Shown here: positions 2,556-63,867 of the stretch, piece after piece
How the letters are laid out: every line of letters starts with the position of its first letter
Numbering within the stretch: the first letter of the stretch is position 1
Assembly (NCBI GenBank): GCA_964652195.1
Contig: CAZZBB010000068.1
Coordinates: forward strand, 102,398-166,397
DNA length: 64,000 nt
Direction: 5' to 3'
Source of the DNA: an uncultured bacterium
GTDB taxonomy: Bacteria; Poribacteria; WGA-4E; WGA-3G
Position numbers and translations under genes: made by a program
The notes under the pieces: generated by a model
What the model was told of the DNA's origin: nothing
The model's input: only the letters and a program-made list of their open reading frames with translations
Databases searched by the model: none

Positions 2556-2659
2556 CCAGTACATATATTGATAGTGTTATACAATTAAATAGAACACCTC
2601 TATCATAGTATCTATGCTTAGAAATTCTATGATAGAGGTGTATCTCACAGTAACTGTAT

Positions 2660-3493
2660 CTATTCGCCAGGTATTTCAACCGGCAAGTCCAGCCGGTCTC
2701 CCCACTCTTTCCAAGAACCTATATAGTTGGCAACTTTTGGATAACCCAAGAGACGCAAAGCTAAATAGGACTGGGAAGAACGGTATCCACCTTGTCAGTA
2801 ACACATCACCTGTTTTTCAGGTGTCACACCTACATCTTCATACATCTGGCGTAGTTCATCTGCAGGTTTGAATGCACCGTTTTCATCAAGATTATTTAAC
2901 CATTCAATATGTACAGACCCAGGAATAGCCCCCGGACGCTCAGCACGAGCAACTCTCCCATAATGTTCATCATCCGTTCTGGTATCCAGAGCGACAAAAT
3001 CCTCTCGGTTAAGCAAATCATTAATCCCATCTGCATCCAGGTGTGTACTCGGTTTGGCATTGATAGGAAATTCTGACACTTCAGGCGGTTCAACCCCTTC
3101 TAAACAAACCTGACCATCAGCAACCACCCATGCTTTGAATCCTCCGTCAAGTAACTTTGTGTTAGGGTGACCTAAATATTCGCAGAACCAAAATCCGCGT
3201 GATGCACGTGTACCGGATATATCCTCATACCAAATGATCGTTTTGGATGAATCAATTCCTCTTTGTTGGAATAAATATGCGATCATCCACATAAAAGTGT
3301 CAAACATCTCTTTCCTTGTATCAATTAGACTCAAACCAAAAAGATCGAGGTGTAGTGCACCAGGTATATGTCCCATAATATATTCATGTGTAGGTCGCGT
3401 ATCTACAATACAGAGTGATTCATCATCTATATCCTTTATTAATGCCTCTGCAGAAACTACAAGTTCAGGGTTTGTATACCCTTTATCCCCCAT
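2660..3493 (-). CDS. Two-domain rhodanese (thiosulfate/3-mercaptopyruvate sulfurtransferase-like) with an in-frame TGA at 2795-2797 at the catalytic residue; candidate selenoprotein (277 aa if TGA=Sec)
   Basis: The listed ORF (232 aa) ends '...KQVMCY*'. The same frame then reads '[44 protein letters not shown]', a canonical rhodanese C-terminus. The active-site loop C-x-x-G-x-R-S becomes [TGA]-Q-G-G-Y-R-S, preceded by the typical Tyr. Confidence 0.7.
2795..2797 (-). other. In-frame UGA codon (candidate selenocysteine codon) inside the rhodanese gene
   Basis: The codon aligns to the catalytic Cys position of the rhodanese CxxGxRS loop. selA is present in the same window. TGA serves as a genuine stop elsewhere (e.g. 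38184-38186, 41300-41302, 42072-42074). Confidence 0.6.
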
Positions 3494-13946: not shown

Positions 13947-14795
13947 TTAATAAGATTTTGCACAACGAAATCCAACAGAACTACTATGGTCACTACATTG
14001 TGCGGGGTAGATATAGAATACTGTGGTACGGGTATCACCGTGACCATTTGTCCATGATCCTCCACGAATCGAGTAGACTATTCCATTTGTAATGTTGTTT
14101 TTTTCATTTGCAAGATCTATCAATTTATTATTATTTATAGTTGTTATTACCCATTCCCAAACATTACCTGCCATATCATGTATTCCAAATGGACTCACGC
14201 CCTTAGGATAACTACCGATAGAAGCAGTCTGTAATGCATACCCATCCAATTTTCCATCCATGTTACCATTATCATCAAAGTTTCCAAAAGACGTATTGTA
14301 CTCATTTCCCCATGGATACAGATGACCATCTATCCCTCTTGCGGCTTTTTCCCATTCTATATCGGTTGGTAATCTCTTACCCGCCCAATTTGCATAGGAC
14401 TCAGCATCATCCCAGTTAACACCTACAACAGGTTGATTCTGTGCATTTAGATTTGGATTCTCCCAAAACTTTGGTTTACGGTGTCCTGTATCTAAGAGGA
14501 ATTCCATGTACTGACCATTGGTGACTTCATACTTATCAATATAGAATGATTTAACGAAAACAGTTTGTTGATCGACTTCATTCCCGAAGGAATCCTCTGT
14601 TTTCTCATCAATTCCTATTGTAACTTCACCTGCTGGAATGAAGACCATTTCCTCTGTGTTTATGATTGAATCTTCATTGAACAAATTAGTCTCAGTGAAT
14701 GAGTCTGGAGAATCTTCACTGTTACAACCAATAAAGACTATATACAATATAAAGATAGAAATAAAATAGATGTAACTAAAAATTAAAAATCTCAT
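13947..14795 (-). CDS. Formylglycine-generating enzyme (FGE/SUMF1) family protein, secreted or lipoprotein
   Basis: 282 aa with an N-terminal signal/TM segment. The C-terminal 'RGGSW...C......VGFRCA' with two Cys is typical of the FGE-sulfatase domain. Confidence 0.75.
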   Translation of the reverse strand: MRFLIFSYIYFISIFILYIVFIGCNSEDSPDSFTETNLFNEDSIINTEEMVFIPAGEVTIGIDEKTEDSFGNEVDQQTVFVKSFYIDKYEVTNGQYMEFLLDTGHRKPKFWENPNLNAQNQPVVGVNWDDAESYANWAGKRLPTDIEWEKAARGIDGHLYPWGNEYNTSFGNFDDNGNMDGKLDGYALQTASIGSYPKGVSPFGIHDMAGNVWEWVITTINNNKLIDLANEKNNITNGIVYSIRGGSWTNGHGDTRTTVFYIYPAQCSDHSSSVGFRCAKSY

Positions 14796-14852
14796 ATCAT
14801 TAGTTAAATTTAATCTAAATTAATGACATTAAACTATACTACAAACCTAACT

Positions 14853-19192: not shown

Positions 19193-20542
19193 CTACTGTC
19201 TCACATATCCTGTTGTCCCGTTCCGTTCTTGTTTATGTGTTTCCCAATATTCTTCGATACCATTTCGCCATGTCTGTGCTGCTTCTGTTAACTCATCAGT
19301 AATATCTGGATACTCGTCTTTTAGATTCTTGGTTTCACCCATATCTTCATTAAGATTTGCAAGGTGGACATCATCTTCAGGAGGTGCACCTTCCACTAAT
19401 CTACCGTTAAGGACTAATTTCCATTCGTTTCGCCGCATTGCTGTTTGATCTCCCATTTCCCAGAAAATATCCGTATGAGGTGAATACCATCCATCACACA
19501 CCATGCCTATTTGGTTTTTTCCATCAAGTTGATATTTTGATAAATCTCCGTCTGCAGCGGATAGGAACGTAGGAAACACATCCATAGCTGCCCCACAATG
19601 GTTAACAACATTTCCGGGTGGAATTTCCTTTGGCCAATGCATTATCCCTGGTGAACGAATTCCTCCTTCATATAAACTGAACTTATGTCCTTTTAGTTTA
19701 CCTGCACTTCCGCCATAATAAGGGTCTTGTGTTCCATCTAACCAGTTTCGAGTTTCCCGAGAGGGTCCATTGTCACTTTGGAAATATGAGAATGTATTCT
19801 CCGCGATGCCCTGACGTTCAAGTTCGGCAAAGATCGCGCCTACACTGTCATCAACTGCACTCAACATGGCAGCCATAATTTGTCTATCCCAAGGTAGATC
19901 TGGAAATCTAACTATATATTCTTGAGGAGCATGCATTGGATAGTGTGGTGCGTTATAAGGAACGTAGAGGAAAAATGGTTTTCCGATTTCAACAGATCTC
20001 CGTATATATTTGATGGCATATTCGGTAATTAATTCAGTAAAATACTCGCCATTTCGATATATTTCCTCACTATTTTCCCAAAGATCATGTGTTTGGTCAA
20101 AATCTGGTCTTCCCAATCCCCAATAAAAGATGTGAGAGTAGAAATCTATACATCCAGCCATGAAACCGAACCAATCATCAAACCCGTGATCTTCCGGTCT
20201 TGAACCTTCAGCGAGACCTAAATGCCATTTACCTGTCATCGCGGTATAATATCCAAGTTCCTTAAGAGCTGTGGAAATTGTTGGAACGGATGGTGGTAAT
20301 CCGGTAGCAGTTCTATGACCAGATAAAATTGATCTTACACCTGCATGTGCAGGATATCTACCTGTTAATACTGAAGCACGAGATGGTGAACAGACAGGTG
20401 AATTAGAGTACCAATCTGTAGAGCGGATACCTTCAGATGCCATTCTATCTATATGAGGTGTCTTAAAATCTGTTGCCCCCATACAGGATAAATCACCATA
20501 TCCTTGGTCATCAGTAAGAAAGATAATAAAATTGGTTTGCAT
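19193..20542 (-). CDS. Sulfatase (Cys-type, arylsulfatase-like) with no apparent signal peptide
   Basis: N-terminal 'FLTDDQGYGDL' and the FGly signature 'C-S-P-S-R' (CSPSRASVLTGRYP). 449 aa. Confidence 0.8.
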   Translation of the reverse strand: MQTNFIIFLTDDQGYGDLSCMGATDFKTPHIDRMASEGIRSTDWYSNSPVCSPSRASVLTGRYPAHAGVRSILSGHRTATGLPPSVPTISTALKELGYYTAMTGKWHLGLAEGSRPEDHGFDDWFGFMAGCIDFYSHIFYWGLGRPDFDQTHDLWENSEEIYRNGEYFTELITEYAIKYIRRSVEIGKPFFLYVPYNAPHYPMHAPQEYIVRFPDLPWDRQIMAAMLSAVDDSVGAIFAELERQGIAENTFSYFQSDNGPSRETRNWLDGTQDPYYGGSAGKLKGHKFSLYEGGIRSPGIMHWPKEIPPGNVVNHCGAAMDVFPTFLSAADGDLSKYQLDGKNQIGMVCDGWYSPHTDIFWEMGDQTAMRRNEWKLVLNGRLVEGAPPEDDVHLANLNEDMGETKNLKDEYPDITDELTEAAQTWRNGIEEYWETHKQERNGTTGYVRQ

Positions 20543-51105: not shown

Positions 51106-51846
51106 CTAATTGTCTTTAATACTACCCCATGAGGTGGCAAGTTTTGTATATGGTTTGACTGGAAAAGGTTTACCAGGACCACCATTGGGAATGTTCTTAC
51201 CAGAAATTTCAACATTATCATACCGCACACGAGAATTACTAATAGCAAGGCCAACTTGACCTTTATCAATAGGATCTGCATCCTCGGCAATAATTGTCAC
51301 CAGAGGATTATCCCCTTCATCTTCAGCATTCTTTATGCTAAACTCAAGTATAGCTTCACCTTCTTCAATCGGATTTAATTGTACAGATGCAGTGAGTTCA
51401 TACCAAACATCTTTGTCAGCAAAGAAATTCCGTCTTGTCGATCCACCATTTGCTACCCATTTATCAATGACAGCAAACCCTCTTAAATAATCTACATAAA
51501 ACACATAACGTCCGCCTTCCTCACCTCTGTCATGAAGAGTGAGTCCAAAATATGGAGGATCGTTTTTTTCATCTATCAGTTTAACTATACACCTGACAGA
51601 ATAATACTTCCAGTTGCTTTCACCCGTCATCCAAAGACTCCAAAATCCAGGTTGAAAAATCTCACCAACTGCTTCGTCATCATTAATCCACCATTTCTCT
51701 ACTTGTCGGTTAAGATTGAAGATTTCCCATTCTTTAGTATCATTGTCCTCAAAATCATCACGCCAAGTCCCAGCAAATGATTGGAAAACAACACACATCA
51801 ATAAATTAAGTAGAATAAAATAATAAAGTTTTCTTTGATTCGTCAT
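51106..51846 (-). CDS. Secreted DUF1080/concanavalin-like domain protein; C-terminal 'KLATSWGSIKDN' motif
   Basis: Signal peptide. '…GQVGLAISNSRVRYDNVEI' resembles the DUF1080 C-terminal strands. Confidence 0.45.
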   Translation of the reverse strand: MTNQRKLYYFILLNLLMCVVFQSFAGTWRDDFEDNDTKEWEIFNLNRQVEKWWINDDEAVGEIFQPGFWSLWMTGESNWKYYSVRCIVKLIDEKNDPPYFGLTLHDRGEEGGRYVFYVDYLRGFAVIDKWVANGGSTRRNFFADKDVWYELTASVQLNPIEEGEAILEFSIKNAEDEGDNPLVTIIAEDADPIDKGQVGLAISNSRVRYDNVEISGKNIPNGGPGKPFPVKPYTKLATSWGSIKDN

Positions 51847-51858
51847 AATACCCTTCCC

Positions 51859-54800
51859 TTATGGTTTGTTCACAATACAGTTTCCCTCTGAGTCTGAATA
51901 TGGACAGTAATTGCAATGTTCCAGATTCTTTGTATAATTCTCATGTTGTAGATTAGAAATCCTACCAATCCAACCTAATCGTAATTCATTCAAATCTGAT
52001 ATCGTGAAGGAATGTTCTATGTGTCTGTTATGATACGCTGAAAAAAGCATAATGTTGATAGCCTGTTGATTAGGATATTGGGAATGTAACAGTAGTCCAT
52101 ATAATTCCATCTCAGGTGAAAAAACATCCAAATTCTCAGTATTCTCGGGAATCAATACAATTCCATGCCAAATTCCTGATTCTGTTTTCACAAGTCTATC
52201 CAACCTACCAGATATTATATGTCCATCCAAATTAAAATGAATCTGTTGGTTAGAAAGTGAGATGAGTGATGAGGTTATTACTTCACCGATCTCAGATGCA
52301 AGTAAAATATCATTTTGTTCTTCAAAGGTTAGTGTTTCTTCAGATGTCAGGTCTCCACTCAGTGGTGACATTTTCAGCACATATTCAAGATAGTGTCGTA
52401 ATGGACACTGACCATAGGTAGCCAGTTCATGTATGGTATATGTTGAAGAGAAATTGTTTATTTCAATTTCATCATAAGGTGATTCAGGAAAAGTATGAGG
52501 AGTTTCCTCTATTGGCATTTGTTCTCTATCATTTATCCAATCAATCTGTTTAATGAATCGTATTTTTTGCTGAAACCTTTGCGGTATAGGACGTTCTTGG
52601 GTATAAACATCCAGTTCTACGTTCAATTCCTTAATATCATTCTCATTGGTATATTCAAGATGTTTAATGATATCTTGCAACTTATTTCTTGATTTACCCT
52701 TATTATTAATTGAACCTGAAAGAATCAATCTGTCTTTTGCTCGAGTTACACCAACATAAAATACACGTTTTTCTTCTGCTCTATCTTTCAAATTCTGTCT
52801 TTTTCTCATTACTGAAACAATAGCAGGTTCGGTTTTATTATATTCTTTTTCTGGTCTTAATGGACTAAAACCGATACCCAATTCATCGTCTATGAAAGGC
52901 TCACGTGCTTGAGGACTTGACCTATCAAGAGAAGGTAGAATCACAACTGGAAACTCTTTCCCTTTTGCTGAGTGAATAGTCATAATCTTAACTGCAGAAC
53001 TACTGTCCTCAACAGGTGCATCACCCTCTGATGGCTCATCTGTAATTAGAATATCCAGATAGTCAACAAATTCATTAAGTAAATTACCGGTTTCATCACC
53101 ATCATACGTACCAGCAAGTTCTAATAGTTTTTGATAATTTGCCCAATTCTGTTCACCTTTATTACCTGACTTGATTGCACCAATCATGCCAGTTTCATGA
53201 ACTATGGTCTGAATAAGTCTATTTAACCGCATTCGTTGTGCTATTTGTAGATGGTTTCTTAAAGTTGAAATGGCATGACGAAGTCGGTCTGTGGGTGTTT
53301 CGTACTTAACAGTGTTTTCCCAAAAACTATCTTTTCCAACCTGAGATATTTCATAGATCTCTACATCTGATATACCAAAAGCAGGTCCCCGTAAAACACC
53401 AATTAACGATGTATTATTCTTTTCAGGATTAATAAGAAAGTGGAGATAGTTCCAAAAATCATAGATTTCTTGCCGTTGATAGAAACCAATTCCACCAGAG
53501 GTAAGGTAGGGAATACCAAACTCATTTAATGCTACTTCAATAATAGGTAAATGACTTCTTGCACGTATAAGAATGGTTATATCACCATGTTTTATAGGCC
53601 TTGGATACTCATTATTATCTCCTCGTTCCCAAATTTCCTCTTTAGAATCTATCATACTCTTAATTTTCTGTGCGATAAACACAGATTCAGAGACTTCATC
53701 TTCTTCATTTCGAAGAATAATTTCGACTGCACCATTTCCTCCCGCAACGCGTGCTTTATTTAATGGCTCATATATCACCTCAAATTCATTCTCAAATACA
53801 CCCTCAAATTGTTTTTCAAAAAAGTAATTAACGAATCCGACTACATCCCGTAAAGAGCGGTAATTCTCTTGAAGACTTATAACCTCTCCATTATGTTCTT
53901 CTATTTTTTGTTTTGTGTCATCAAAGACCCGTACATCAGCTCCACGAAATCCATAGATACTCTGTTTGGGATCACCTACAATGAATAGATTAGATTCGTT
54001 GAGATTATTTGTCAGAAGATTTACCAGTTCATATTGCAATTCGTTTGTATCTTGATACTCATCTATCATGTAATACTCATACTGTCCTCGGATATTTTGA
54101 CTTACAGTTTCGACATTTTTCAATAGGTTGACAGTTCTTAATTGAAGGTCTTCGTTATCCAATTTTCCTTGGATGAATTTCATCTTCTGGTAATTCTTCA
54201 ATATGAGATCATACAGTTGAAGGAGACTTTGGGAGATCTTATACAAGAACTCATCATCGGTTTCAATACCCGTATTGCAATCATATACTGGTGCTGATTT
54301 GATTTTCTTGGCAGTCTCTACAACATACTGAATTTCGTCTTCTACAACTGTAGTGTCTACTTTACTCCCAATGAGATCTCTCTTTGCAATCGTATCTGTA
54401 CTGGTAGTTATTAATCCTGCGATTTCTATGAGTAATGTACGTTGTTCTTCGCTTTCCCCATTTTGGACAGATAAAGTCTCAATTTGTTGCTTTAATTCTA
54501 TAATTCTATCTACCTTACTACCCCGTGCAATCTGGAGTATAGTATGTAGACAATCTAAAAATTCTGATAGTTGATTCTCTGCCAATATAGATGCATTAAA
54601 TATATCATACCATACCTGTGGTATCTCAGTATTGTTGATATTCTCATAAACAGTTTGTCTTAGTGATTCAATCGTCGAACGTTCGTTCACCATTCTGGAG
54701 AGTAAATCTATAAGATACTGCTTATTTCTGGTCCTATACAAACAATATTCAATATCGGAATAGAACGGGTTCTCGGCCTTTGATACAATATCATCAAATG

Positions 54801-55200
54801 TACTCTTGATAACTTTTTGGAATAAAAGTCTTTGTTCTATACCTTCAATTATAGTAAAGGATGCTGGGATTTTAGCATCGAAGGGGTATTCTCTTAAAAT
54901 TCGGGCACAAAATGAATGTATTGTTGAGATAGGTGCTGTATTCATCTCTTCGATACAATTTTCACGAATATCCCTATTCCGATCATCATGGAGTTCTTCT
55001 ATAATACGCGCTTTGATCTCTGCAGCAGCCTTCTTAGTAAAAGTAATTGCTACAATTTGCCTTGGTGTTGCTTTTCCACTACGAAGAATTTTAAGGTATC
55101 GTTGTACTAAAACAGTTGTCTTACCTGAACCTGCACCGGCAGTGACACAGATGTGCTTATCAATGTTAAGAGCTTTCTGTTGGTTTGGGGTTAAATTCAT
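51859..55200 (-). CDS. UvrD/Rep-family helicase fused to a C-terminal PD-(D/E)XK nuclease with a Cys4 (Fe-S-like) motif (AddA/AddB-Cas4-like single-chain helicase-nuclease)
   Basis: N-terminal 'AGAGSGKTTVL' Walker A with UvrD motifs. C-terminal 'C…CNYCPY…C' cysteine cluster. 1113 aa. Confidence 0.75.
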   Translation of the reverse strand: MNLTPNQQKALNIDKHICVTAGAGSGKTTVLVQRYLKILRSGKATPRQIVAITFTKKAAAEIKARIIEELHDDRNRDIRENCIEEMNTAPISTIHSFCARILREYPFDAKIPASFTIIEGIEQRLLFQKVIKSTFDDIVSKAENPFYSDIEYCLYRTRNKQYLIDLLSRMVNERSTIESLRQTVYENINNTEIPQVWYDIFNASILAENQLSEFLDCLHTILQIARGSKVDRIIELKQQIETLSVQNGESEEQRTLLIEIAGLITTSTDTIAKRDLIGSKVDTTVVEDEIQYVVETAKKIKSAPVYDCNTGIETDDEFLYKISQSLLQLYDLILKNYQKMKFIQGKLDNEDLQLRTVNLLKNVETVSQNIRGQYEYYMIDEYQDTNELQYELVNLLTNNLNESNLFIVGDPKQSIYGFRGADVRVFDDTKQKIEEHNGEVISLQENYRSLRDVVGFVNYFFEKQFEGVFENEFEVIYEPLNKARVAGGNGAVEIILRNEEDEVSESVFIAQKIKSMIDSKEEIWERGDNNEYPRPIKHGDITILIRARSHLPIIEVALNEFGIPYLTSGGIGFYQRQEIYDFWNYLHFLINPEKNNTSLIGVLRGPAFGISDVEIYEISQVGKDSFWENTVKYETPTDRLRHAISTLRNHLQIAQRMRLNRLIQTIVHETGMIGAIKSGNKGEQNWANYQKLLELAGTYDGDETGNLLNEFVDYLDILITDEPSEGDAPVEDSSSAVKIMTIHSAKGKEFPVVILPSLDRSSPQAREPFIDDELGIGFSPLRPEKEYNKTEPAIVSVMRKRQNLKDRAEEKRVFYVGVTRAKDRLILSGSINNKGKSRNKLQDIIKHLEYTNENDIKELNVELDVYTQERPIPQRFQQKIRFIKQIDWINDREQMPIEETPHTFPESPYDEIEINNFSSTYTIHELATYGQCPLRHYLEYVLKMSPLSGDLTSEETLTFEEQNDILLASEIGEVITSSLISLSNQQIHFNLDGHIISGRLDRLVKTESGIWHGIVLIPENTENLDVFSPEMELYGLLLHSQYPNQQAINIMLFSAYHNRHIEHSFTISDLNELRLGWIGRISNLQHENYTKNLEHCNYCPYSDSEGNCIVNKP

Positions 55201-55224: not shown

Positions 55225-56316
55225 CTAATCTGTATTTTCATCTGTATTTTCAAGCGGCAGTGGAATAATTGCTTCAGGAGGTATTGATACATTAACTGTA
55301 TCCCCTTCATTTTTTAGTTCTTTTTCAGGATTATACAGAACCGTTTTAATACTGTGTTGGTCAGCAATCATAAGTTCATATTCCTCTACTCTCCCTAAAT
55401 AAGTTATGTGAGAGAGAGTGGCATCAAATTGGTTAACGTTACTATTCTGGTTTAGCTGAATAGTTTCTGGTCTAATAGAACAAGTCACCTCCTGTCCATG
55501 TGTAAAATTGTGATATACACACTCAGAATGAAGTATTCCTACTGAAGTCTCTATTTTCACACTCCCATTTGAAATCTCTTGTATATTACCAGTGATAAAA
55601 TTTGTCTCACCAACGAAACTCGCTACAAAAGGATCAGTTGGAAACTTATAGATTTCTCGTGGAGATCCAGTCTGCACAAAAACTCCATCTTTCATGATTG
55701 CCATCCGTGTTGCCATAGAAATTGCTTCCACTTGATCATGGGTAACATATATTGTTGTAATCTTAGTTCTGTTATGTATTTCTCTGATTTCATTACGTAG
55801 ATTTTGTCGAAGGGCGGCATCCAAATTACTCAATGGTTCATCAAGTAATAGAACACTGGGTTCAATTACTAAGGCACGCGCCAAAGCAATCCGTTGCTGT
55901 TGTCCTCCAGAAAGTGTGTTAACAGGTCTATCATGATATTCTCTCATCTGTACCAAATCCAGAACAGAATCTATCTTCACTTGACGATCTTTCTTTTCCA
56001 GTTTTCTTAGCTTTAATCCATAGTCAACATTTTGCTCTACTGTCATGTGGGGCCATAGGGCATAATTCTGGAATACCATCCCTGTGTTACGTTGGTGTGG
56101 AGGAACATTATTCATTTCTGTCCCGTCGAACCGTAAGATGCCAGCATCTGGACGATAAAATCCTGCGATGACCCTCAAGAGTGTTGATTTACCGCACCCA
56201 GATGGGCCAAGAAGAAAGAAAAGTTCACCGGGTTCAATGGTTAGTGATACATCATTAACAGCAAAAGTTGTATCAAAAGATTTTGTTATATGGTCTAACT
56301 CTACAGCAACAGACAT
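55225..56316 (-). CDS. ABC transporter ATP-binding protein with TOBE-type C-terminal domain (PotA/FbpC/MalK-like); no permease adjacent
   Basis: Walker A GPSGCGKST, signature LSGGQQQR, Walker B LLLDEP. Confidence 0.8.
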   Translation of the reverse strand: MSVAVELDHITKSFDTTFAVNDVSLTIEPGELFFLLGPSGCGKSTLLRVIAGFYRPDAGILRFDGTEMNNVPPHQRNTGMVFQNYALWPHMTVEQNVDYGLKLRKLEKKDRQVKIDSVLDLVQMREYHDRPVNTLSGGQQQRIALARALVIEPSVLLLDEPLSNLDAALRQNLRNEIREIHNRTKITTIYVTHDQVEAISMATRMAIMKDGVFVQTGSPREIYKFPTDPFVASFVGETNFITGNIQEISNGSVKIETSVGILHSECVYHNFTHGQEVTCSIRPETIQLNQNSNVNQFDATLSHITYLGRVEEYELMIADQHSIKTVLYNPEKELKNEGDTVNVSIPPEAIIPLPLENTDENTD

Positions 56317-56363: not shown

Positions 56364-56400
56364 CAATATACGGACGGGGAAACCCCGTCCCTACGATAAT
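56364..56400 (+). repeat. ~36-bp hairpin repeat GGCAATATACGGACGGGGAAACCCCGTCCCTACGATA (REP-like), copy 1
   Basis: Near-identical inverted-orientation copy at 59171..59207. Base changes between the copies are compensatory in the stem. Confidence 0.6.
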
Positions 56401-56707
56401 TTTATGGACTGGATTACCAAAATATTTATACTTCATTAATTAATCAATTTTAAGCAAGTTTCAATATTAAATATTCACATTGTGCGTCAATAACGGGCGG
56501 GGAAAACCTGCCCCTACGGGTTTGACACCTATCGAAAATCGTAAGATTATTATTTAATATTGCTTATAAATAACGTGAGTTTGATAACTCAAATTCTAAT
56601 ATACTGTGCGGTTAGAAACCGCACCTACCGGGGCTATATGAGTATTAATTATGGAAGAATGAAGTTAAAATACATATTTTCAAACTCACCTTATAAATAA
56701 TATCCTA

Positions 56708-57568
56708 TCACTTCACAGTTCCTACATCCTTAACACATCTGAAACCTATAGTACTACCCGAACTAAGATGATACCATCGATCAGACACCCTAAGATCGTC
56801 TTTACTTCCACCCCAAGCTCCACCACGTAAGATCCTGAAATTACCGTTTTCAGGGGCTATACTCCTACCAAATCTGGGATTGTGTTCTGGTGAATTTCCA
56901 TAAAATTCACCATTATACTCATCAAAACACCATTCCCAAACATTCCCAATCATATCGTATAGACCATAATCATTTGGTGGAAAACTACCCACAGGTGATG
57001 TCCATTTCCAAATATCTTTTCCCTCAACACCCCCAAAATTTGCATCATCATGTGTGAGATAATTAGAAGTAGGATAGATCTTCCCTATCTGTCCACCTCG
57101 TGCTGCATATTCCCATTCCGCTTCTGTCGGCAACCGTTTTTTTGCCCAGTGTGCGTATGCCACAGCATCATTCCACGACACATTTACAACAGGATTGTCA
57201 GGTTTATTGAACTTTGGATCGTGCCACAAAGGTGGTGCGGAATAACCGGTTGCAATTACAAACATCTGATAGTGTGCATTTGTAACTTCGTAGACATCAA
57301 TATAAAAGGCATCAAGAGAAACAGTATGTAATGGCAACTCATCATCATCTCCAATATCGTTATGGGTATTTCCCATTTCAAATCGTCCAGATGGTATTAA
57401 CGTCATCTGTCTACCATCTATGATAGAGATTATACTCTTAGGCAACTCTCCTTCTATTAATGTCTGATTTGGGGGATCTGTACAAGAAGATATTATACAG
57501 ACTGAAATAAGAATTATAGAAATGGTCCTAATTTTTGTGTAATCCTTCAATTCTTGATGAAATCTCAT
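56708..57568 (-). CDS. FGE/SUMF1-family domain lipoprotein (FGE-sulfatase fold; one of the two conserved C-terminal cysteines is absent)
   Basis: Lipobox 'IISSC'. 'RGGAW…IGFRCV'. Overlaps selA by 41 nt. Confidence 0.7.
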   Translation of the reverse strand: MRFHQELKDYTKIRTISIILISVCIISSCTDPPNQTLIEGELPKSIISIIDGRQMTLIPSGRFEMGNTHNDIGDDDELPLHTVSLDAFYIDVYEVTNAHYQMFVIATGYSAPPLWHDPKFNKPDNPVVNVSWNDAVAYAHWAKKRLPTEAEWEYAARGGQIGKIYPTSNYLTHDDANFGGVEGKDIWKWTSPVGSFPPNDYGLYDMIGNVWEWCFDEYNGEFYGNSPEHNPRFGRSIAPENGNFRILRGGAWGGSKDDLRVSDRWYHLSSGSTIGFRCVKDVGTVK

Positions 57569-58973
57569 GAGCAGCTTGTATCAGACACTCTATTTCCACA
57601 TCATATAAGGTTCTGATATCAAAGAATAATTTATTATCCTCTATTCGTCCAATCACTGGAGTGCTTGCTTGCCGAAATAATTCCGACAGTTTTTCTACAG
57701 AAATCAACTTCGGACTTAACCCTACAGCAACACTGTTTAAAGTCTCTTCGGGAAGTGAACCGCTACCAATTTGAGATTTCGTTTCAGATGCTTCAATTGA
57801 AATACTATCTTGAAAAACACTCTGTAATCTCTCAGACACAGTTTCAGCAGAAGCATATAATTCCTCTACAGGACGGATGTATCGTTGTAACATTGGAAAA
57901 TCATCTGTAATCTCATTATCCAAAGATAGGTAATTCTGTAGTGTGGTTGAAAGCGCTGCAATTGTTAATTTATCAACTCTTAATGCTCGCATCAAAGGAT
58001 TTTTCCGTATCCGTTGTATCATCTCTGTTTTACCAGCAATTATTCCCGCTTGCGGACCACCTAACAATTTATCACCACTAAATGTGACTATATCAACTCC
58101 AGCTTGCATCCTATCCGCAACTACAGGTTCATAAGGAAGACCATAATTCGATAGATCCACTAATGCTCCGCTCCCCAAATCTTCCATGAGTGGTATATTA
58201 TGTTCCTTACCCAGTAGTGCTAATTCTTGGATGTCAGGGGTTGAAGTAAATCCAAGAATCTTATAATTACTTGGATGAACTTTGAGAAACAGTGAAGTAT
58301 TCTCATTAATTGCTTCTTCATAATCGCGTAGATGTGTTCTATTTGTTGTCCCTACTTCTCTAAGAATAGCACCACTTGATGTCATTACATCAGGTATACG
58401 GAATGCACCTCCAATTTCTATGAGTTCTCCTCGTGAAACAATTACCTCTTTACCTCTTGCAAGAGTATTCAATGAAATGAGTACTGCAGCAGCATTATTA
58501 TTAACTATAGTAGAAGCTTCACAACTGGTTAATTCTTGAAGTAAGGGTTCAGTTAATCGATCCCTATGTCCCCTTGTTCCTGTTTCTAAGTCGTATTCTA
58601 AATTAACATAATTCTGTGCAGCCTTTGTAATACTATTACACACTGATTCTGGGAGTAATGATCGTCCAAGATTCGTATGTGTCACAGTTCCAGTAGCATT
58701 TATTACAGTACGGATAGGTGGTTTTAATTTATCCTTAAGATGTTGAATAACTAATTCAGGAAATTCATCACGGTGAGGAATATTAATCTCAGTATTACCT
58801 TCTAAAATCTGTGATCTGAAATCTGAAACGATAGAACGCAATATGTCCGTAACCAGTGATCTTGAATACGATTCAACTAATTTGATGATTTCAGGTTGCG
58901 TCAGAAGTTTTTCAATTGCAGGCAGTTTTTGAAGTAATTCTTCCTTTTCGTTTCCGATTTTTTCTGTAGACAA
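57528..58973 (-). CDS. selA: L-seryl-tRNA(Sec) selenium transferase (selenocysteine synthase)
   Basis: Blocks 'INATGTVTHTNLGRS', 'IVNNNAAAV', 'VSRGELIEIGGAFRIPDV', 'EVGTTNRTH' and 'FSGDKLLGGPQAGII' match E. coli SelA closely. 481 aa. Confidence 0.9.
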   Translation of the reverse strand: MSTEKIGNEKEELLQKLPAIEKLLTQPEIIKLVESYSRSLVTDILRSIVSDFRSQILEGNTEINIPHRDEFPELVIQHLKDKLKPPIRTVINATGTVTHTNLGRSLLPESVCNSITKAAQNYVNLEYDLETGTRGHRDRLTEPLLQELTSCEASTIVNNNAAAVLISLNTLARGKEVIVSRGELIEIGGAFRIPDVMTSSGAILREVGTTNRTHLRDYEEAINENTSLFLKVHPSNYKILGFTSTPDIQELALLGKEHNIPLMEDLGSGALVDLSNYGLPYEPVVADRMQAGVDIVTFSGDKLLGGPQAGIIAGKTEMIQRIRKNPLMRALRVDKLTIAALSTTLQNYLSLDNEITDDFPMLQRYIRPVEELYASAETVSERLQSVFQDSISIEASETKSQIGSGSLPEETLNSVAVGLSPKLISVEKLSELFRQASTPVIGRIEDNKLFFDIRTLYDVEIECLIQAAHEISSRIEGLHKN

Positions 58974-59170
58974 CTTCTTTTCCTAATGGTAAATAAAAAG
59001 GTATATGGAACTATGTCGAATGATAGGTAAGCCACTATGGAATTTTACCAAACGAAAAGAGGATTGTCAATCGAAAGTAGTAGGGGAGGGTGTAAACTAT
59101 TGAGTAATTTACATAGATACGATTTTTCATGAAGTTTAAATAAATATTTCGGTTATTCAGTTCATTAAAG

Positions 59171-59207
59171 TATCGTAGGGGCGGGGTTTCCCCGCCCGTA
59201 TATTACC
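59171..59207 (-). repeat. ~36-bp hairpin repeat (REP-like), copy 2, inverted orientation
   Basis: The reverse complement reads GGTAATATACGGGCGGGGAAACCCCGCCCCTACGATA. Confidence 0.6.
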
Positions 59208-59328: not shown

Positions 59329-60144
59329 TCAAATTTCACCGATACAGAACAGGGTATTCTTTGCTTCTAAACTCCGAATATCGGAATAATGGTGAACTTG
59401 AGCAACTTCCACTCCATTTTTAATAATGGCAGTGGGACGTTCGATAACGAAGTCAGCAAAGTGCGATGCGTTGAAAGCAACATAAGCAAGACTGAACATC
59501 TCAATCTGCCGATCGTATCGGTTTGACAAATCTGGAAATAGAACAATTCCTGTATCAACTTGGTAGATATTTGCGTTCACATTGATGTTCATCGTTTTAA
59601 CTGGACACTCGATAATTGCCCGTTGATGTGTATTGGTATTCCATATTTCAGTGTGCGTTACGATGGGTAGACATTTTTGTGTCGCCTCTAAAATAGATGT
59701 GTTGTTATCAAGGATCGAAACCTGCGATGCTTCTTGAACATCAAACAGTGGTCCTCCCCAATAATCCTGCGCTGGTCTATACTCGACATAGTTATCGTTA
59801 CAGTATGCATGTCTTCTGAATACCGCTATATGTTCTTCGCCAAAAACAGGGAGGAAATCATAGTTCGGATTTATGAAGAGATTTTTCTCCGCAAAGGTGT
59901 GTTCACTTTTACACGAACCACATTGGTAATAATCGCTGAAACTTCCATCTGTATTATCTATGACACGGCATCGAGATTCGACCCAAAAGCGCGGTGCGTT
60001 CCCATTGCCAACAGAGTTAATAAAAGAAAGTCCATAATCAAGGCACTTCATTGCTTCTCCTTTAGACGGTAAATGATGTAATAATCTCATTTTATCCCAA
60101 CAGTGTTCACCTGTCAATCGGCATCTCTTGTTTCTTCTCCCCAC
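59329..60144 (-). CDS. Hypothetical protein (Cys-rich N-terminus), GTG start
   Basis: 271 aa with no recognised motif. Located immediately upstream of selA. Confidence 0.35.
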   Translation of the reverse strand: MGRRNKRCRLTGEHCWDKMRLLHHLPSKGEAMKCLDYGLSFINSVGNGNAPRFWVESRCRVIDNTDGSFSDYYQCGSCKSEHTFAEKNLFINPNYDFLPVFGEEHIAVFRRHAYCNDNYVEYRPAQDYWGGPLFDVQEASQVSILDNNTSILEATQKCLPIVTHTEIWNTNTHQRAIIECPVKTMNINVNANIYQVDTGIVLFPDLSNRYDRQIEMFSLAYVAFNASHFADFVIERPTAIIKNGVEVAQVHHYSDIRSLEAKNTLFCIGEI

Positions 60145-60266: not shown

Positions 60267-60302
60267 GATCTCCGAATCGCGATCTATCGGGAATCGGAGA
60301 TC
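60267..60302. promoter_or_regulatory. Operator-like nested palindromes: GATCTCCGA…TCGGAGATC (9-bp perfect inverted repeat) enclosing ATCGCGAT, preceded by tandem CTTGATTC x2
   Basis: Read from the sequence, about 120-160 bp upstream of the 59329..60144 gene. Confidence 0.4.
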
Positions 60303-60704: not shown

Positions 60705-63700
60705 TTACTTCCTTATCAACATCTTCCGCGTGGCAGTGAAATCACCCGCACTGAATTTAACAAAATAGACACCTGTCGCCACCTTCTCACCAAGATTATT
60801 TTTACCATCCCAATGGGCTGCACGGATACGGCTTTGATAGATACCGACAAGTTTATGTCCTAAGTCTAATGTTCGTATCAACTTACCATCTGATGCATAG
60901 ATTGAAATGCTGACATTGGATGGGGTTGCAAGTTGATAGGGTATCCACGTCTCTGGATTGAATGGGTTTGGATAGTTCGTAAACAAACGCGTCTTTTCTG
61001 GTGTTACGAATTCGTTATCAACTGTACCATCTCTATCTACATCATACTTTGAGGATGGTGCCAGCAAAAAGGGGGCTACTGTGCCGGAGGGCACTGAAAC
61101 ATCACCCGGTGAAACCAAATTTGTTACAACAGTCTGGATATAAGTCCCTCTAATGTTACTCCCCAGGATTTTCCCTCGACTGTTCGTCCAATATATTTTG
61201 TTTTCAACCGTGTCAACGGAAATTCCGTAAGGCACTGCTAATACTGATATTAGTTCTTCAACATGACTGCCATCGAGATTAGCACTATGGATTTTACCTG
61301 CTGAATCACTGGTCTTTTCTGTCCAAAATACTTTACCAGTACCCACAGCGATTCCGCCCAGTGTTCCATAACCACCAGCAATCTGTCTAACACCCGAACC
61401 ATCAACGTTTGCAGATTGCACAGTGTTATCAGCTGTTATCCAGTATATTTTACCGGCACCAACCGCAATGTCTTTCGGATCGTTTAGATCTCTAATGAGG
61501 TTCGGCTTATATCCTGAACCATCAAGATTGATTGACTGCACTTTACCCCAGCCGTTTGTCAAGTAAATCTTATTATTAGCAGTGTCGACAGTTATACCCG
61601 CAGGTGTTGCTGTAAGATCACGAATCAACTGAATATTAGTACCGTTCAGGGCAGAACGACGAAGTCTACCGTTATTATTCCCTATATCCTCAACCCAGTA
61701 GAGACGCGTATCCGTAACAACAAGACTCACAACATTGTCCACACCAGGAGCAATGTCTTCTACACTGCTACCAACAAGACGATGCAGCGTGCCATTATCC
61801 GTGTTTATCCAATACATATAAGCTTGCTGTGAAAACGGTTCATTGTTTTTAAGATAGATTGTGACATTCGGATTCTTTTTCAAAAGTTCAAAGAGCGGTT
61901 TTCTGTTCTTAATTGGGTTTTCCACAAGGGATAAATTTACAAGATTTATTAAGTCTGTGAGTGGACGAACATCGCTAATTCGATTGTAGTTGAGAAGTAA
62001 TTGACGTAAATTCATTAATTTTTTGAGGGGTAGAACATCCGTAATCTAATTGGATGAGAGATTTAACCTTCGTAACTCTGTTAATCCCGTGAGGGGTATA
62101 ATGTCCACAATTTGATTTCCACTAAGACCTAAGAACGTAATTCCAGTCAAATTTGCCAAAGGTGTAATGTCTCTAATCTGATTTCCACTAAGAGTTAATG
62201 ACTTATTTCCAGTCAAATTTGCCAAAGGTGTAATGTCTCTAATCTGATTTCGATCAAGACCTAAGGATACCAGGTTCGGTAATTCTGTCAACAGAACGAG
62301 TCCCTCGTCCTTAATTTGATTGTAAGAGAGTTCTAAGCTTATTAAATTCAGCAATCCCGTAAGTGGTGTAATGTTCACAATTTGATTCCTGTGGAGGTAC
62401 AGGGTATCCAATCGCGTCAATCCTGATAGCGGTCTTATATCACTGATTTTGTTTCCACTAAGTATTAGCGAGCTCAATTGTGTTAATCCTGTGAGCGGTG
62501 TAAGGTCACGAATATCCCCGAACTTATAGTTGAAATCTTGATCAATGTGGATCTGACCAAGGTGTAAACGCTCAAGATTAGTTGCGTGTTGTAGACCGGT
62601 GAGGTCCCTTACAAACGCATCGGGCTTGCTTGATCCATAGTTATCCAGGCTCCCTAAACCCAACATATCCAGTTTCGTGATGTGACTTGAAGGGTCTAAG
62701 CCAAGGTTTTCCCTGATCATTGCTGCTAAATTCGCATCGGGTATTAACACAGGTTCGGAGTCCGGGAACAAAGCGTCAGTATCGAGGGAAAATATTTGAA
62801 ATGTAAAGTTGCCATACGCATCAATAACAGAAAGAACGACATATTCACTTGCGGGTGCTAATTCGGTCGTGATGAATTCAATTGTTTCACTGTTTCTGCT
62901 TAAGGATTGACAATCAATCAATGTGGTTTTGTTCGGGTCAAAACCCGGATTTCCTCGCCAAGAAAATGAATTCGTGAGCAGCTGCGCTTGATAGAGTTCC
63001 TGGGAATGCGTTATCTTAAACTGGAGTCGAACAGTATTGGGTGTAGATACAAAAGAGGGTGGGAGCATCTCAATCGTTGGGACTTCGCGAAAGGCATTAT
63101 GGGTCGTGTTAAAGTAGCGATGGGCATCCAGCCATTGGGCAGCGCAGTACGACAATTGGTCCGTGAACTCCTCAGGTCCGTAACCCATTATGTAGCGGTC
63201 ATCACGGAAATCGTGGGGCAATCCAAAGGCGTGTCCAAGTTCATGGGCAATGACATTAAAGGCTCTAAGACGATGTACTTTGGGTGCTATGTGAAAATCT
63301 AAGAGCGTAATGTTTGCAGTTCCTCCAAACGGGGAACCGCTGCCATTACCACCGACTTGGCCTGGAACTACACCCCCACCATTATCGTCGCCAACAATGA
63401 AAATAAGGTGAACAAAATGCTCGGACAAGTCAAAATGTTGGTTAATTTCTTGATGGGCTTTGCCAATTTTATCCCTAGAATATTCTATAGCACGGAATTT
63501 CCCTTTAACAAAGTGTCTCACCCTCTTTCCAAGCGTATTGGTTTCAAGCCTAAAAGTTTTTCTGCCAAACCCGTGGCGTTCCATCTCATCGGCATAAAAT
63601 TGCTGGACATCCTCTACCAAAGCGTCTAGCCTTGCATCCATATCCCGTGAGGGGTGACGGTCACTGGGGTGAAAGTAGATCTGCCGCACGACATATTCAG

Positions 63701-63788
63701 GCGATTCGTCTTGGGCAAAACTATTTGGCACAAACATGAGTGTTACAAGAGCAAATAGTGTGAATGTAAGACATAGTGTTGTTTTCAT
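60705..63788 (-). pseudogene. Secreted metzincin (HELGHAFGLPHD) - leucine-rich repeat - YWTD beta-propeller - T9SS C-terminal-domain protein. Interrupted by a single in-frame TAG at 62046-62048 (ORF-track pieces 62046..63851 and 60705..62015).
   Basis: Both ORFs are in the same frame. The LRR periodicity (L..L..L.L..N.I.DI.PL) continues across the TAG: '…RRLNLSSN*ITDVLPLKKLMNLRQLLLNYNRISDVRPL…'. C-terminal 'NYPNPFNPETWIPY…KMLIRK'. Confidence 0.5.
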
Positions 63789-63867
63789 GAGTTCGTTCTC
63801 CATATTGTGTAAGAGTGGTCTCTGTGTTTGTGGGAATAACACAGAAACCACTAGAATTTGGAAAATC

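What the first reader, a model, noticed from the sequence alone, without database searches (positions are those of the whole stretch)
57528..58973. selA is present and translationally coupled to an FGE-fold lipoprotein gene, while selB, selD and selC are absent from the window
The SelA assignment is very strong: multiple signature blocks are near-identical to E. coli SelA. It establishes that this organism makes Sec-tRNA and so supports the Sec-rhodanese call. Unusually, selA is not next to selB. Instead its 3' end overlaps by 41 nt the start of a formylglycine-generating-enzyme-fold lipoprotein gene (56708..57568). The pair is flanked by inverted copies of a 36-bp hairpin repeat (56364-56400 and 59171-59207). 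A hypothetical Cys-rich protein with a palindromic operator-like upstream region lies immediately 5' of selA.
Basis: partly seen in the sequence, partly recalled or inferred. Interest (0 to 1): 0.6.

Follow-up and report, generated by a model that had tools for sequence, protein, structure and literature searches.

The report
Poribacterial selA operon with FGE-like lipoprotein
This is an ordinary selenocysteine synthase gene (selA) from a sponge-associated Poribacteria genome, whose end overlaps the start of a gene for an exported, catalytically disabled FGE-fold lipoprotein; the pairing is conserved across the phylum, but nothing yet shows the two proteins work together.

Summary
ORF 57528-58973(-) is a canonical SelA: TIGR00474 scores 597 bits against a cut-off of 268, and E. 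coli SelA scores 413 bits with the PLP-lysine motif intact. ORF 56708-57568(-) is an FGE-fold lipoprotein (PF03781, 219 bits) that lacks both catalytic cysteines of true FGE. It overlaps selA by 41 nt (ATG start) or 23 nt (TTG start). The window holds no selB, selD or tRNA-Sec.

The adjacency is not a coincidence. In 80 Poribacteria genomes the orthologue follows selA directly in 71. It was lost in one clade of 7 and in one further genome. The junction is usually an ATGA overlap. Seven of seven orthologues found by searching from the FGE side also sit behind selA; paralogues do not.

The same block also keeps an orphan ABC ATPase and an AddA-like helicase. SelA is cytoplasmic and the partner is exported. 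So co-expression within a conserved gene string is the best-supported reading, not a shared biochemical role.

The flanking hairpins are a dispersed REP-like element, absent from the closest relatives. selA lying apart from selB is the rule in this phylum (79 of 80 loci). An in-frame TGA at the catalytic Cys of a rhodanese supports Sec use. Interest is modest.

The parts
57528..58973 (-). selA, L-seryl-tRNA(Sec) selenium transferase, 481 aa, TTG start
   Evidence: TIGR00474 597 bits (cut-off 268) and PF03841 516 bits. E. coli SelA 8uzw 413 bits with the FSGDKLLGGPQ PLP-lysine motif. The TTG start and an AGGA 9 nt upstream are conserved in L002-L004.
56708..57568 (-). FGE-fold (SUMF1-like domain) lipoprotein gene, 286 aa from ATG 57568; alternative TTG start at 57550
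   Evidence: PF03781 219 bits. Human FGE 146 bits, but Cys336 aligns to Gly and Cys341 to a gap. Foldseek top hits are FGE, pFGE and PvdO, on a model of only moderate confidence (pLDDT 66.6). Orthologues (57-85% id) lie directly 3' of selA in 71/80 genomes.
57528..57568 (-). selA/FGE-like overlap: 41 nt with the ATG start, 23 nt with the TTG start
   Evidence: Sequence read directly. In relatives the junction is an ATGA overlap in 36 loci. Of 58 loci analysed, 36 overlap and 13 have a 0-20 nt gap.
57482..57568 (-). Lipoprotein signal peptide ending in lipobox I-S-S-C (Cys29)
   Evidence: Charged n-region, hydrophobic core and lipobox Cys; the same pattern appears in the orthologues whose N-terminus could be read. 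Inferred from sequence; no signal-peptide predictor was available.
59042..59070 (-). Sigma-70-like promoter TTGACA-17-TAAAAT with TG extension, about 70 nt 5' of the selA start
   Evidence: 11 of 12 consensus matches. Both hexamers, the spacer length and the 70-nt leader are essentially invariant in window, L002, L003 and L004. Sequence 5' of the -35 hexamer is unalignable.
59171..59207 (.). REP-like GC hairpin, upstream copy
   Evidence: Exact match to the motif; -19.3 kcal/mol, z -2.7; absent at this position in L002-L004.
56364..56400 (.). REP-like GC hairpin, downstream copy 1, inverted relative to the upstream copy
   Evidence: -19.2 kcal/mol.
56492..56518 (.). REP-like hairpin, downstream copy 2 (3 substitutions); a third degenerate hairpin lies near 56600-56625
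55225..56316 (-). Orphan ABC-transporter ATPase with TOBE domain; next gene of the conserved string
   Evidence: PF00005 and PF08402. Follows the FGE-like gene, or selA directly where that gene is lost, in nearly all loci.
51859..55200 (-). AddA-like UvrD helicase / PD-(D/E)XK nuclease; conserved string continues
   Evidence: PF00580, PF13361 and PF12705. Conserved after the ABC gene in the related loci.
51106..51846 (-). 246-aa protein with no Pfam family; last gene seen of the conserved string
   Evidence: No Pfam match. Homologue (46-88% id) follows the AddA-like gene in many loci.

Best explanation
The window comes from a Candidatus Poribacteria genome.

selA (57528-58973, minus strand) encodes a canonical PLP-dependent selenocysteine synthase, which converts Ser-tRNA(Sec) to Sec-tRNA(Sec). 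It is the first gene of a same-strand string conserved across the phylum: selA, an FGE-like lipoprotein gene, an orphan ABC ATPase, an AddA-like helicase-nuclease and a 246-aa protein. Transcription most likely starts at a conserved sigma-70-type promoter about 70 nt upstream of selA (inferred from a phylogenetic footprint).

The second cistron starts inside the end of selA. Ribosomes finishing selA would therefore re-initiate on it (inferred from the overlap). The common form of the junction is ATGA. In this lineage the selA reading frame ends later relative to that start, which stretches the overlap to 41 or 23 nt.

The second protein has the FGE / C-type-lectin-like fold. It lacks both copper-binding catalytic cysteines and carries a lipoprotein signal peptide. 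It is therefore most likely an exported, membrane-anchored binding or scaffold protein, not a formylglycine-generating enzyme. It sits in a different compartment from SelA.

The pairing most likely reflects co-expression inside an old, rarely rearranged gene string rather than a shared step in selenium metabolism. selB, selC and presumably selD lie elsewhere in the genome. The GC hairpins around the pair are recently inserted REP-like elements. They may stabilise or end transcripts, but they do not define a unit.
For: - SelA identity.
- Poribacteria origin and synteny: 80 loci with SelA at 58-89% id. The FGE orthologue is directly downstream in 71. It is absent in one monophyletic clade of 7 and in L078, and L043 is truncated.
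- Searching from the FGE side: 7 of 7 orthologues with readable flanks have selA upstream. Paralogues at 50-53% id do not.
- Junction: ATGA in 36 loci. Of 58 loci, 36 overlap and 13 have a 0-20 nt gap. The median gaps are 152 nt for FGE to ABC and 58 nt for ABC to AddA.
- Promoter footprint.
- Missing catalytic Cys pair. FGE fold. Lipobox conservation.
- The FGE-like gene is dispensable for keeping selA: the loss clade retains a full-length selA.
- The ABC, AddA-like and P246 genes are equally conserved in the string.
- selB and tRNA-Sec exist in the phylum but away from selA: near it only in L006.
- Hairpins are dispersed and not conserved in position.
- Sec use: TGA at the rhodanese catalytic Cys. 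SelA and SelB COGs are reported as enriched in sponge symbiont bins (PMC5649159). Sec-containing hydrogenases are reported from Poribacteria (PMC13582414).
Against: - The selA/FGE-like junction is the tightest in the string, and orthologues were never seen away from selA. That is more than generic synteny would require and leaves room for a functional tie.
- No transcript data, so co-transcription, promoter use and translational coupling are all inferred.
- No clear Shine-Dalgarno sequence precedes the second start.
- The structure model is only moderately confident (pLDDT 66.6, with the C-terminal half low).
- The function of the lipoprotein is unknown. 'Binding or scaffold protein' rests on the fold and the missing catalytic residues only.
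- selD was not located anywhere. selB and selC were not located in this genome.
Confidence: 0.62

Rival explanations
1. The FGE-like lipoprotein is a real functional partner of the selenocysteine pathway in Poribacteria. For example, it could be an extracytoplasmic factor that captures or processes selenium, or matures exported selenoproteins, and is kept in fixed ratio with SelA by translational coupling.
For: - The overlap is ancestral and conserved across SelA divergence down to 58% id.
- Orthologues are never found away from selA (7/7 from the FGE side), whereas paralogues are found elsewhere.
- The FGE-like domain is used repeatedly in sulfur and selenium chemistry. PDB matches include EgtB, selenoneine synthase SenA and selenoxide synthase OvsA.
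Against: - It is exported, whereas SelA is cytoplasmic.
- It lacks the FGE catalytic cysteines and the DinB iron domain of EgtB/SenA/OvsA. Matches to those models cover only their C-terminal domain and score far below cut-off.
- One clade of 7 genomes and L078 lost it while keeping selA.
- The same string also conserves an AddA-like helicase, which has no plausible selenium role.
- No paper linking the two was found.
Confidence: 0.12
2. The downstream gene encodes a working formylglycine-generating enzyme that matures the many sulfatases of this organism, for example the sulfatase at 19193..20542. It only happens to sit next to selA.
For: PF03781 at 219 bits, and the closest solved structures are true FGEs. 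A Cys-type sulfatase with a CSPSR motif lies in the window.
Against: - Both catalytic, copper-binding cysteines are missing in the window protein. The orthologue consensus has no Cys at that motif either (RILRGGGWGGS..DLRV).
- From my own knowledge, a lipoprotein signal puts it outside the cytoplasm, where bacterial sulfatases are modified before or during export. This was not tested here.
Confidence: 0.04
3. The selA/FGE-like pair is a mobile or recently transferred cassette bounded by the inverted 36-bp hairpin repeats.
For: Inverted copies of the same hairpin flank the pair, and in this 64-kb window the motif occurs only there.
Against: - The same gene order, with the same flanking ABC and AddA-like genes, occurs in 71 related genomes. 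Their SelA tree is deeply branched.
- The closest relatives L002-L004 have no hairpins at these sites.
- The motif occurs at unrelated sites in other Poribacteria, sometimes in tandem.
- GC content around the pair matches the rest of the window.
Confidence: 0.02
4. The adjacency is a coincidence of this one genome, made likely by the many FGE-domain genes in Poribacteria.
For: FGE-domain genes are abundant. A second one lies in the window at 13947..14795, and extra paralogues lie near selA in 9 loci.
Against: Orthologous adjacency occurs in 71 of 80 genomes, with conserved start/stop overlap.
Confidence: 0.01

Closest known systems
E. coli / Aquifex aeolicus SelA (selenocysteine synthase; PDB 8uzw, 3w1h) and the E. 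coli selAB operon
   Same: Full-length match including the N-terminal domain, the PLP-lysine motif and all signature blocks. It presumably has the same chemistry on Ser-tRNA(Sec).
   Different: The gene is not followed by selB. It is followed by, and overlaps, an FGE-like lipoprotein gene. selB and tRNA-Sec lie elsewhere: within 6 kb in only 1 of 80 Poribacteria loci.
Formylglycine-generating enzyme (human SUMF1; S. coelicolor and T. curvata FGE) and its Cys-less paralogue pFGE/SUMF2 (1y4j)
   Same: Same domain and fold; best sequence and fold matches (146 bits, TM about 0.55-0.58). Like pFGE, it lacks the catalytic cysteines.
   Different: No Cys336/Cys341 equivalents. It is a bacterial lipoprotein. 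It cannot be filed as an FGE.
PvdO, and T9SS PorK/GldK lipoproteins (Cys-less FGE-fold proteins of the cell envelope)
   Same: Single FGE-fold domain, located in the envelope, no FGE cysteine pair. PvdO aligns over the full length (PDB 5hha).
   Different: Scores are far below the family cut-offs: PvdO 107 against 500, GldK 155 against 350. PorK/GldK are 400-490 aa. No pyoverdine or T9SS ring genes are adjacent.
EgtB / OvoA / SenA / OvsA (sulfoxide and selenoxide synthases with a C-terminal FGE-like domain)
   Same: Share the FGE-like domain. SenA and OvsA show that this fold can serve selenium chemistry.
   Different: These enzymes are cytoplasmic and need an N-terminal DinB iron-binding domain. 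The window protein has none; its matches cover only the C-terminal part of those models.
REP/BIME-type repetitive extragenic palindromes
   Same: Short GC-rich imperfect palindromes, intergenic, dispersed, in either orientation, sometimes in tandem, with compensatory stem changes.
   Different: The sequence is unrelated to enterobacterial REP. No associated RAYT transposase was looked for.

Membership tests
SelA (L-seryl-tRNA(Sec) selenium transferase, TIGR00474 / PF03841) | Whole-protein score above the curated equivalog cut-off | tested here: met
   597.3 bits against a cut-off of 267.9; PF03841 516 bits.
SelA (L-seryl-tRNA(Sec) selenium transferase, TIGR00474 / PF03841) | N-terminal SelA-specific domain present, which separates it from the SelA-related lyase DgaE | tested here: met
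   PF12390 at residues 15-47. DgaE models score 89 against 385 and 60 against 600.
SelA (L-seryl-tRNA(Sec) selenium transferase, TIGR00474 / PF03841) | PLP-binding lysine in the FSGDKLLGGPQ motif | tested here: met
   VTFSGDKLLGGPQAGII aligns to the same motif of E. coli SelA 8uzw.
SelA (L-seryl-tRNA(Sec) selenium transferase, TIGR00474 / PF03841) | Works with tRNA-Sec, SelD and SelB encoded in the same genome | not testable with these tools
   None of them is in the 64-kb window. The rest of this genome could not be read. Relative L006 has selB and tRNA-Sec.
Formylglycine-generating enzyme (aerobic, copper-dependent; SUMF1 type) | FGE-sulfatase domain and fold | tested here: met
   PF03781 219 bits. 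Foldseek top hits are FGE structures, on a model of only moderate confidence.
Formylglycine-generating enzyme (aerobic, copper-dependent; SUMF1 type) | Two catalytic, copper-binding cysteines (human Cys336 and Cys341) | tested here: not met
   HMMER alignment to 1y1e: GGSYMCHRSYCYRYRC aligns to GGAWGGSKD---DLRV. The orthologue consensus has no Cys there either (RILRGGGWGGS..DLRV).
EgtB / OvoA / SenA / OvsA sulfoxide and selenoxide synthases | N-terminal DinB domain with the iron-binding triad, plus an equivalog-level score | tested here: not met
   Only residues 122-278 match, and only to the C-terminal part of the models. EgtB scores 116 against 360, SenA 96 against 420, OvoA 56 against 400.
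PvdO, and PorK/GldK | Score above the curated cut-off | tested here: not met
   PvdO 107 against 500; GldK 155 against 350; GldJ 52 against 383.
Bacterial lipoprotein | Signal peptide with a positive n-region, a hydrophobic core and a lipobox ending in Cys | tested here: met
   ...KIRTISIILISVCIISS-C. The same pattern appears in the orthologues whose N-terminus could be read. By inspection only; no dedicated predictor was available.
Translationally coupled gene pair | Downstream start codon overlaps or abuts the upstream stop codon | tested here: met
   41- or 23-nt overlap in the window. ATGA in 36 related loci; 49 of 58 loci overlap or have a gap of 20 nt or less.
Translationally coupled gene pair | Downstream translation depends on upstream translation | not testable with these tools
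   Needs reporter or ribosome-profiling experiments.
REP-like dispersed palindromic element | Multiple intergenic copies at non-homologous sites, in both orientations, forming stable hairpins | tested here: met
   3-4 copies in the window. 11 further copies in 8 other Poribacteria loci at unrelated positions. Hairpins fold at -12 to -19 kcal/mol.

The most novel reading that the evidence does not exclude
The Cys-less FGE-fold lipoprotein is a dedicated, so far unknown accessory of selenium use in Poribacteria, for example in extracytoplasmic capture or handling of selenium, or in maturation of exported selenoproteins. That would explain why its gene has stayed translationally coupled to selA across the phylum and has not been seen anywhere else.
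Probability: 0.12. Interest if true: 0.65.

Novelty: new variant of a known kind. Interest (0 to 1): 0.3.

Why it matters
Both genes belong to known families, so the only new element is the arrangement: a phylum-wide, translationally coupled selA/FGE-like lipoprotein pair. I found no paper describing it.

If the coupling is functional, it would point to a new envelope-located player in bacterial selenium metabolism. It would also give a first functional handle on the very large class of Cys-less FGE-domain proteins.

If it is only synteny, which is more likely, the result is still useful for annotation:
- Poribacteria carry a complete-looking SelA, and relatives carry selB and tRNA-Sec.
- The TGA-interrupted rhodanese in this window should be read as a selenoprotein.
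- The neighbouring 'FGE' should not be annotated as a formylglycine-generating enzyme.

Tried and rejected
1. Mobile cassette bounded by the hairpins: rejected. The hairpins are dispersed and are absent in the closest relatives.
2. Chance adjacency: rejected.
3. True FGE: rejected because the Cys pair is missing.
4. EgtB/SenA-type selenium enzyme: rejected. There is no DinB domain and scores are below cut-off.
5. Sec machinery in the flanks of 80 related loci: tRNA-Sec and selB were found only in L006. A crude SelD motif scan of all loci found nothing.
6. Terminator scan between the genes and after the FGE-like gene: no canonical terminator.
7. Shine-Dalgarno motif before the coupled start: none is evident in 36 ATGA-type junctions.
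8. SECIS-like hairpin after the rhodanese TGA: no better than shuffled sequence (z 0.65). This is uninformative.
9. Other in-frame TGA candidates in the window: none is credible besides the rhodanese.
10. A SelA homologue search intended to reach other phyla returned only Poribacteria-level hits in its top 120. selA/FGE adjacency outside the phylum therefore remains untested.
11. Structure prediction gave only moderate confidence (pLDDT 66.6). It was used only to confirm the fold.
12. Literature searches for a link between selA and FGE found nothing.
Full report
WHAT IS THERE

The region carries two overlapping minus-strand ORFs.

ORF 57528..58973 (481 aa, TTG start) is a canonical selenocysteine synthase:
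- NCBIfam TIGR00474 (selA, equivalog) scores 597.3 bits against a cut-off of 267.9.
- Pfam SelA scores 516 bits, and the N-terminal PF12390 domain is present.
- The related lyase DgaE scores far below its cut-off.
- Against solved structures, the best match is E. coli SelA (8uzw, 413 bits over residues 9-459). All signature blocks and the FSGDKLLGGPQ PLP-lysine motif are conserved.

ORF 56708..57568 (286 aa) is an FGE-sulfatase-domain protein (PF03781, 219 bits). No NCBIfam equivalog is reached: GldK scores 155 against 350, EgtB 116 against 360, PvdO 107 against 500 and SenA 96 against 420.

THE SECOND PROTEIN IS NOT A WORKING FGE

The alignment to human FGE puts Gly at the position of Cys336 and a gap at Cys341. 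The orthologue consensus likewise has no Cys in that motif.

Its N-terminus is a lipoprotein signal ending in I-S-S-Cys29. The same charged, hydrophobic, lipobox-Cys pattern appears in the orthologues whose N-terminus could be read.

An AlphaFold model built from 46 sequences was only moderately confident (pLDDT 66.6). Its best Foldseek matches are FGE, pFGE/SUMF2 and PvdO.

The protein is therefore an exported, Cys-less FGE-fold lipoprotein. 'FGE' as a function is not.

THE OVERLAP

The ATG at 57568 lies 41 nt inside selA, whose TAG stop is at 57528-57530. An in-frame TTG at 57550 would give a 23-nt overlap.

In the closest clade, L004 and P0005 only have the first ATG. L003 has an in-frame stop after it and must use the second start. 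Both starts are therefore possible in the window, and either way the genes overlap.

ORIGIN AND CONSERVATION

A scan of one genome per species found 80 loci with SelA at 58-89% identity. Essentially all are labelled Candidatus Poribacteria.

tblastn of the window proteins against these loci shows a conserved same-strand string: selA, FGE-like gene, ABC ATPase with TOBE domain, AddA-like helicase-nuclease, and a 246-aa protein.
- The FGE-like orthologue (57-85% id) lies directly 3' of selA in 71 loci.
- It is missing in L013, L022, L025, L028, L029, L030 and L079. These form one clade in a SelA neighbour-joining tree, and there selA is followed directly by the ABC gene.
- It is also missing in L078.
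- L043 ends too early to tell.

Searching from the FGE side gives the same answer:
- The protein database shows a clear score gap between orthologues (at least 330 bits) and other FGE-domain proteins (at most 290 bits).
- Seven of seven orthologues with readable flanks have selA immediately upstream: L084, L086-L089, L096 and L097.
- Two paralogues at 50-53% identity lie in unrelated contexts.

THE JUNCTION

In 36 loci the FGE-like ATG overlaps the selA TGA as ATGA. Of 58 loci where a start could be picked automatically, 36 overlap, 13 have a gap of 0-20 nt and 9 have a larger gap. Some of those 9 are mis-picked starts.

The next junctions are looser. The median gap is 152 nt from the FGE-like gene to the ABC gene, and 58 nt from the ABC gene to the AddA-like gene.

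No Shine-Dalgarno-like motif precedes the ATGA. In the window's clade the selA frame ends later relative to the FGE start, giving overlaps of 35-80 nt.

PROMOTER

The best sigma-70-like match in the region is TTGACA-17-TAAAAT with a TG extension, at 59070-59042(-). It lies about 70 nt 5' of the selA TTG start.

In an alignment of the window with L002, L003 and L004, both hexamers, their spacing, the 70-nt leader, an AGGA motif and the TTG start are essentially invariant. Everything 5' of the -35 hexamer is unalignable. This phylogenetic footprint supports the site as the selA promoter. Use of the site is inferred, not shown.

No canonical terminator was found between or after the two genes.

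THE HAIRPINS

They differ by one compensatory base pair. Each folds at about -19 kcal/mol.

There are two more copies 3' of the FGE-like gene, at 56492-56518 and a degenerate one near 56600-56625.

The motif also occurs in eight other Poribacteria loci at unrelated positions. One case is a triple tandem in L030. It is absent from the closest relatives, which have the same gene order.

These are REP-like dispersed palindromes inserted into intergenic DNA. They are not boundaries of a unit. They enlarge the gap between the FGE-like gene and the ABC gene from about 55 nt (L002, L004) to 391 nt in the window.

REST OF THE SEC MACHINERY

The window has:
- no tRNA;
- no Rfam match;
- no match to a poribacterial SelB;
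- no SelD or EF-Tu-type motifs;
- no ORF of SelD-like size left unassigned.

ARAGORN does detect tRNA-Sec in relative L006 (a complete chromosome, OZ250160.1). There the order is tRNA-Sec, selB, lepB and lepA on one strand, then selA on the other. None of the other 79 loci has selB or a tRNA within 6 kb. An isolated selA is therefore the norm in this phylum, not an oddity of this genome.

selD was not found in any flank by a crude motif scan. Its location remains unknown.

Three lines of evidence support Sec use:
- The rhodanese at 2633..3493(-) has TGA exactly at the catalytic Cys position (..QVMCY-U-QGGYRS..), with 44 further in-frame codons. It is the only credible in-frame TGA in the window.
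- SelA and SelB COGs are reported as enriched in sponge-symbiont bins (PMC5649159).
- Sec-containing hydrogenase variants are reported from Poribacteria (PMC13582414).

THE UPSTREAM HYPOTHETICAL

Its real start is the ATG at 60051. That gives 240 aa, the same length as its homologues. It has no Pfam or NCBIfam family.

It belongs to a large, well conserved family with 1182 hits in Poribacteria, Hydrogenedentes and Verrucomicrobia. Of its 8 cysteines, only the C44-x-x-C47 pair is conserved: C47 is invariant and C44 nearly so.

It is not a conserved neighbour of selA; only a fragment appears at the far edge of L019. A 17-nt palindrome lies at 60267-60302. Nothing tests whether it is an operator.

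INTERPRETATION

Shown:
- the identity of SelA;
- the fold, missing catalytic residues and lipoprotein signal of the partner;
- phylum-wide conservation of the adjacency and of the start/stop overlap;
- a conserved promoter-like footprint;
- the dispersed nature of the hairpins.

Inferred: co-transcription, translational re-initiation and the export of the lipoprotein.

Whether the two proteins share a function is open.

Against a shared function:
- They are in different compartments.
- The lipoprotein has no recognisable catalytic site.
- The lipoprotein gene was lost twice while selA was retained.
- The same string conserves an AddA-like DNA-repair helicase and an orphan ABC ATPase, which have no plausible link to selenium.

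For a shared function:
- This is the tightest junction in the string.
- Orthologues were never seen elsewhere.
- The FGE-like fold recurs in sulfur and selenium chemistry (EgtB, SenA and OvsA appear among the PDB matches).

I put about 0.6 on co-expression within a conserved string with no shared biochemistry, and about 0.12 on a real selenium-related role.

NOVELTY AND SCORE

SelA is a new member of a known family. Cys-less FGE-fold envelope proteins are a known but poorly understood kind. The conserved coupling of the two appears to be undescribed. It is a lineage-specific variant of how the sel genes are arranged.

Adjacency outside Poribacteria could not be tested.

Interest is modest at 0.3. 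The finding is solid and tidy, but a specialist would not be very surprised without evidence of a functional link.

Noticed in passing
window 2633-3493 (-); TGA at 2795-2797: A two-domain rhodanese has an in-frame TGA exactly at the catalytic cysteine position (..QVMCY-U-QGGYRS..), followed by 44 more in-frame codons. It is a likely selenocysteine-containing sulfurtransferase. It is the only credible in-frame TGA in the window. The hairpin after the TGA folds no better than shuffled sequence.
   Followed up: partly
window 59329-60051 (-): This 240-aa protein has no Pfam or NCBIfam model but belongs to a large, well conserved family. There are 1182 hits at 50-88% id in Poribacteria, Hydrogenedentes and Verrucomicrobia, with a conserved CxxC-KSEHTF motif. 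In a Hydrogenedentes contig (L098) it sits between a BNR sialidase-like gene and a GH2 glycosidase gene, which hints at a role in glycan breakdown. The listed ORF start (GTG 60144) is too far upstream.
   Followed up: partly
window 13947-16148 (-): A second FGE-fold protein with a lipoprotein-like N-terminus (282 aa; 32-40% id matches to the selA-linked orthologues) lies directly 3' of a di-haem cytochrome c peroxidase / MauG-like gene. A Cys-type sulfatase lies at 19193-20542.
   Followed up: no
L030:5640-5758; also L011, L016, L022, L005, L027, L043: The same GC hairpin motif (CGTAGGGGCGGGGTTTCCCCGCCCG) recurs in other Poribacteria genomes. One case is three tandem copies with a 46-nt period just 5' of selA in L030. 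It is a phylum-wide REP-like element family.
   Followed up: partly
L006:308-5183 (OZ250160.1): In one complete Poribacteria chromosome, tRNA-Sec, selB, lepB and lepA lie head-to-head with selA. It is the only one of the 80 loci with other Sec genes within 6 kb.
   Followed up: yes
L036, L048, L049, L053, L057, L060, L062, L077, L078 (5' flanks): In a distant clade, a second FGE paralogue (about 42% id) lies 5' of selA, so selA is flanked by FGE-like genes on both sides in all of these loci except L078, which lacks the 3' orthologue. It follows homologues of the LRR-metalloprotease-like and T9SS-tail genes that also lie 5' of selA in the window at 60705-63851.
   Followed up: no
L031, L040, L045, L059, L071, L081: In these relatives the selA reading frame runs 130-142 nt past the FGE-like start codon, so SelA has a variable C-terminal extension encoded over the lipoprotein signal peptide in another frame.
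   Followed up: no
window 55225-56316 (-): This ABC-transporter ATPase with a TOBE domain has no adjacent permease or binding-protein gene. It is conserved next to the AddA-like helicase gene throughout Poribacteria.
   Followed up: no
window 60267-60302: A 17-nt imperfect palindrome (GATCTCCGAATCGCGAT / ATCGGGAATCGGAGATC, 88% complementary) lies about 215 nt 5' of the 240-aa protein's start. Its function is unknown.
   Followed up: no
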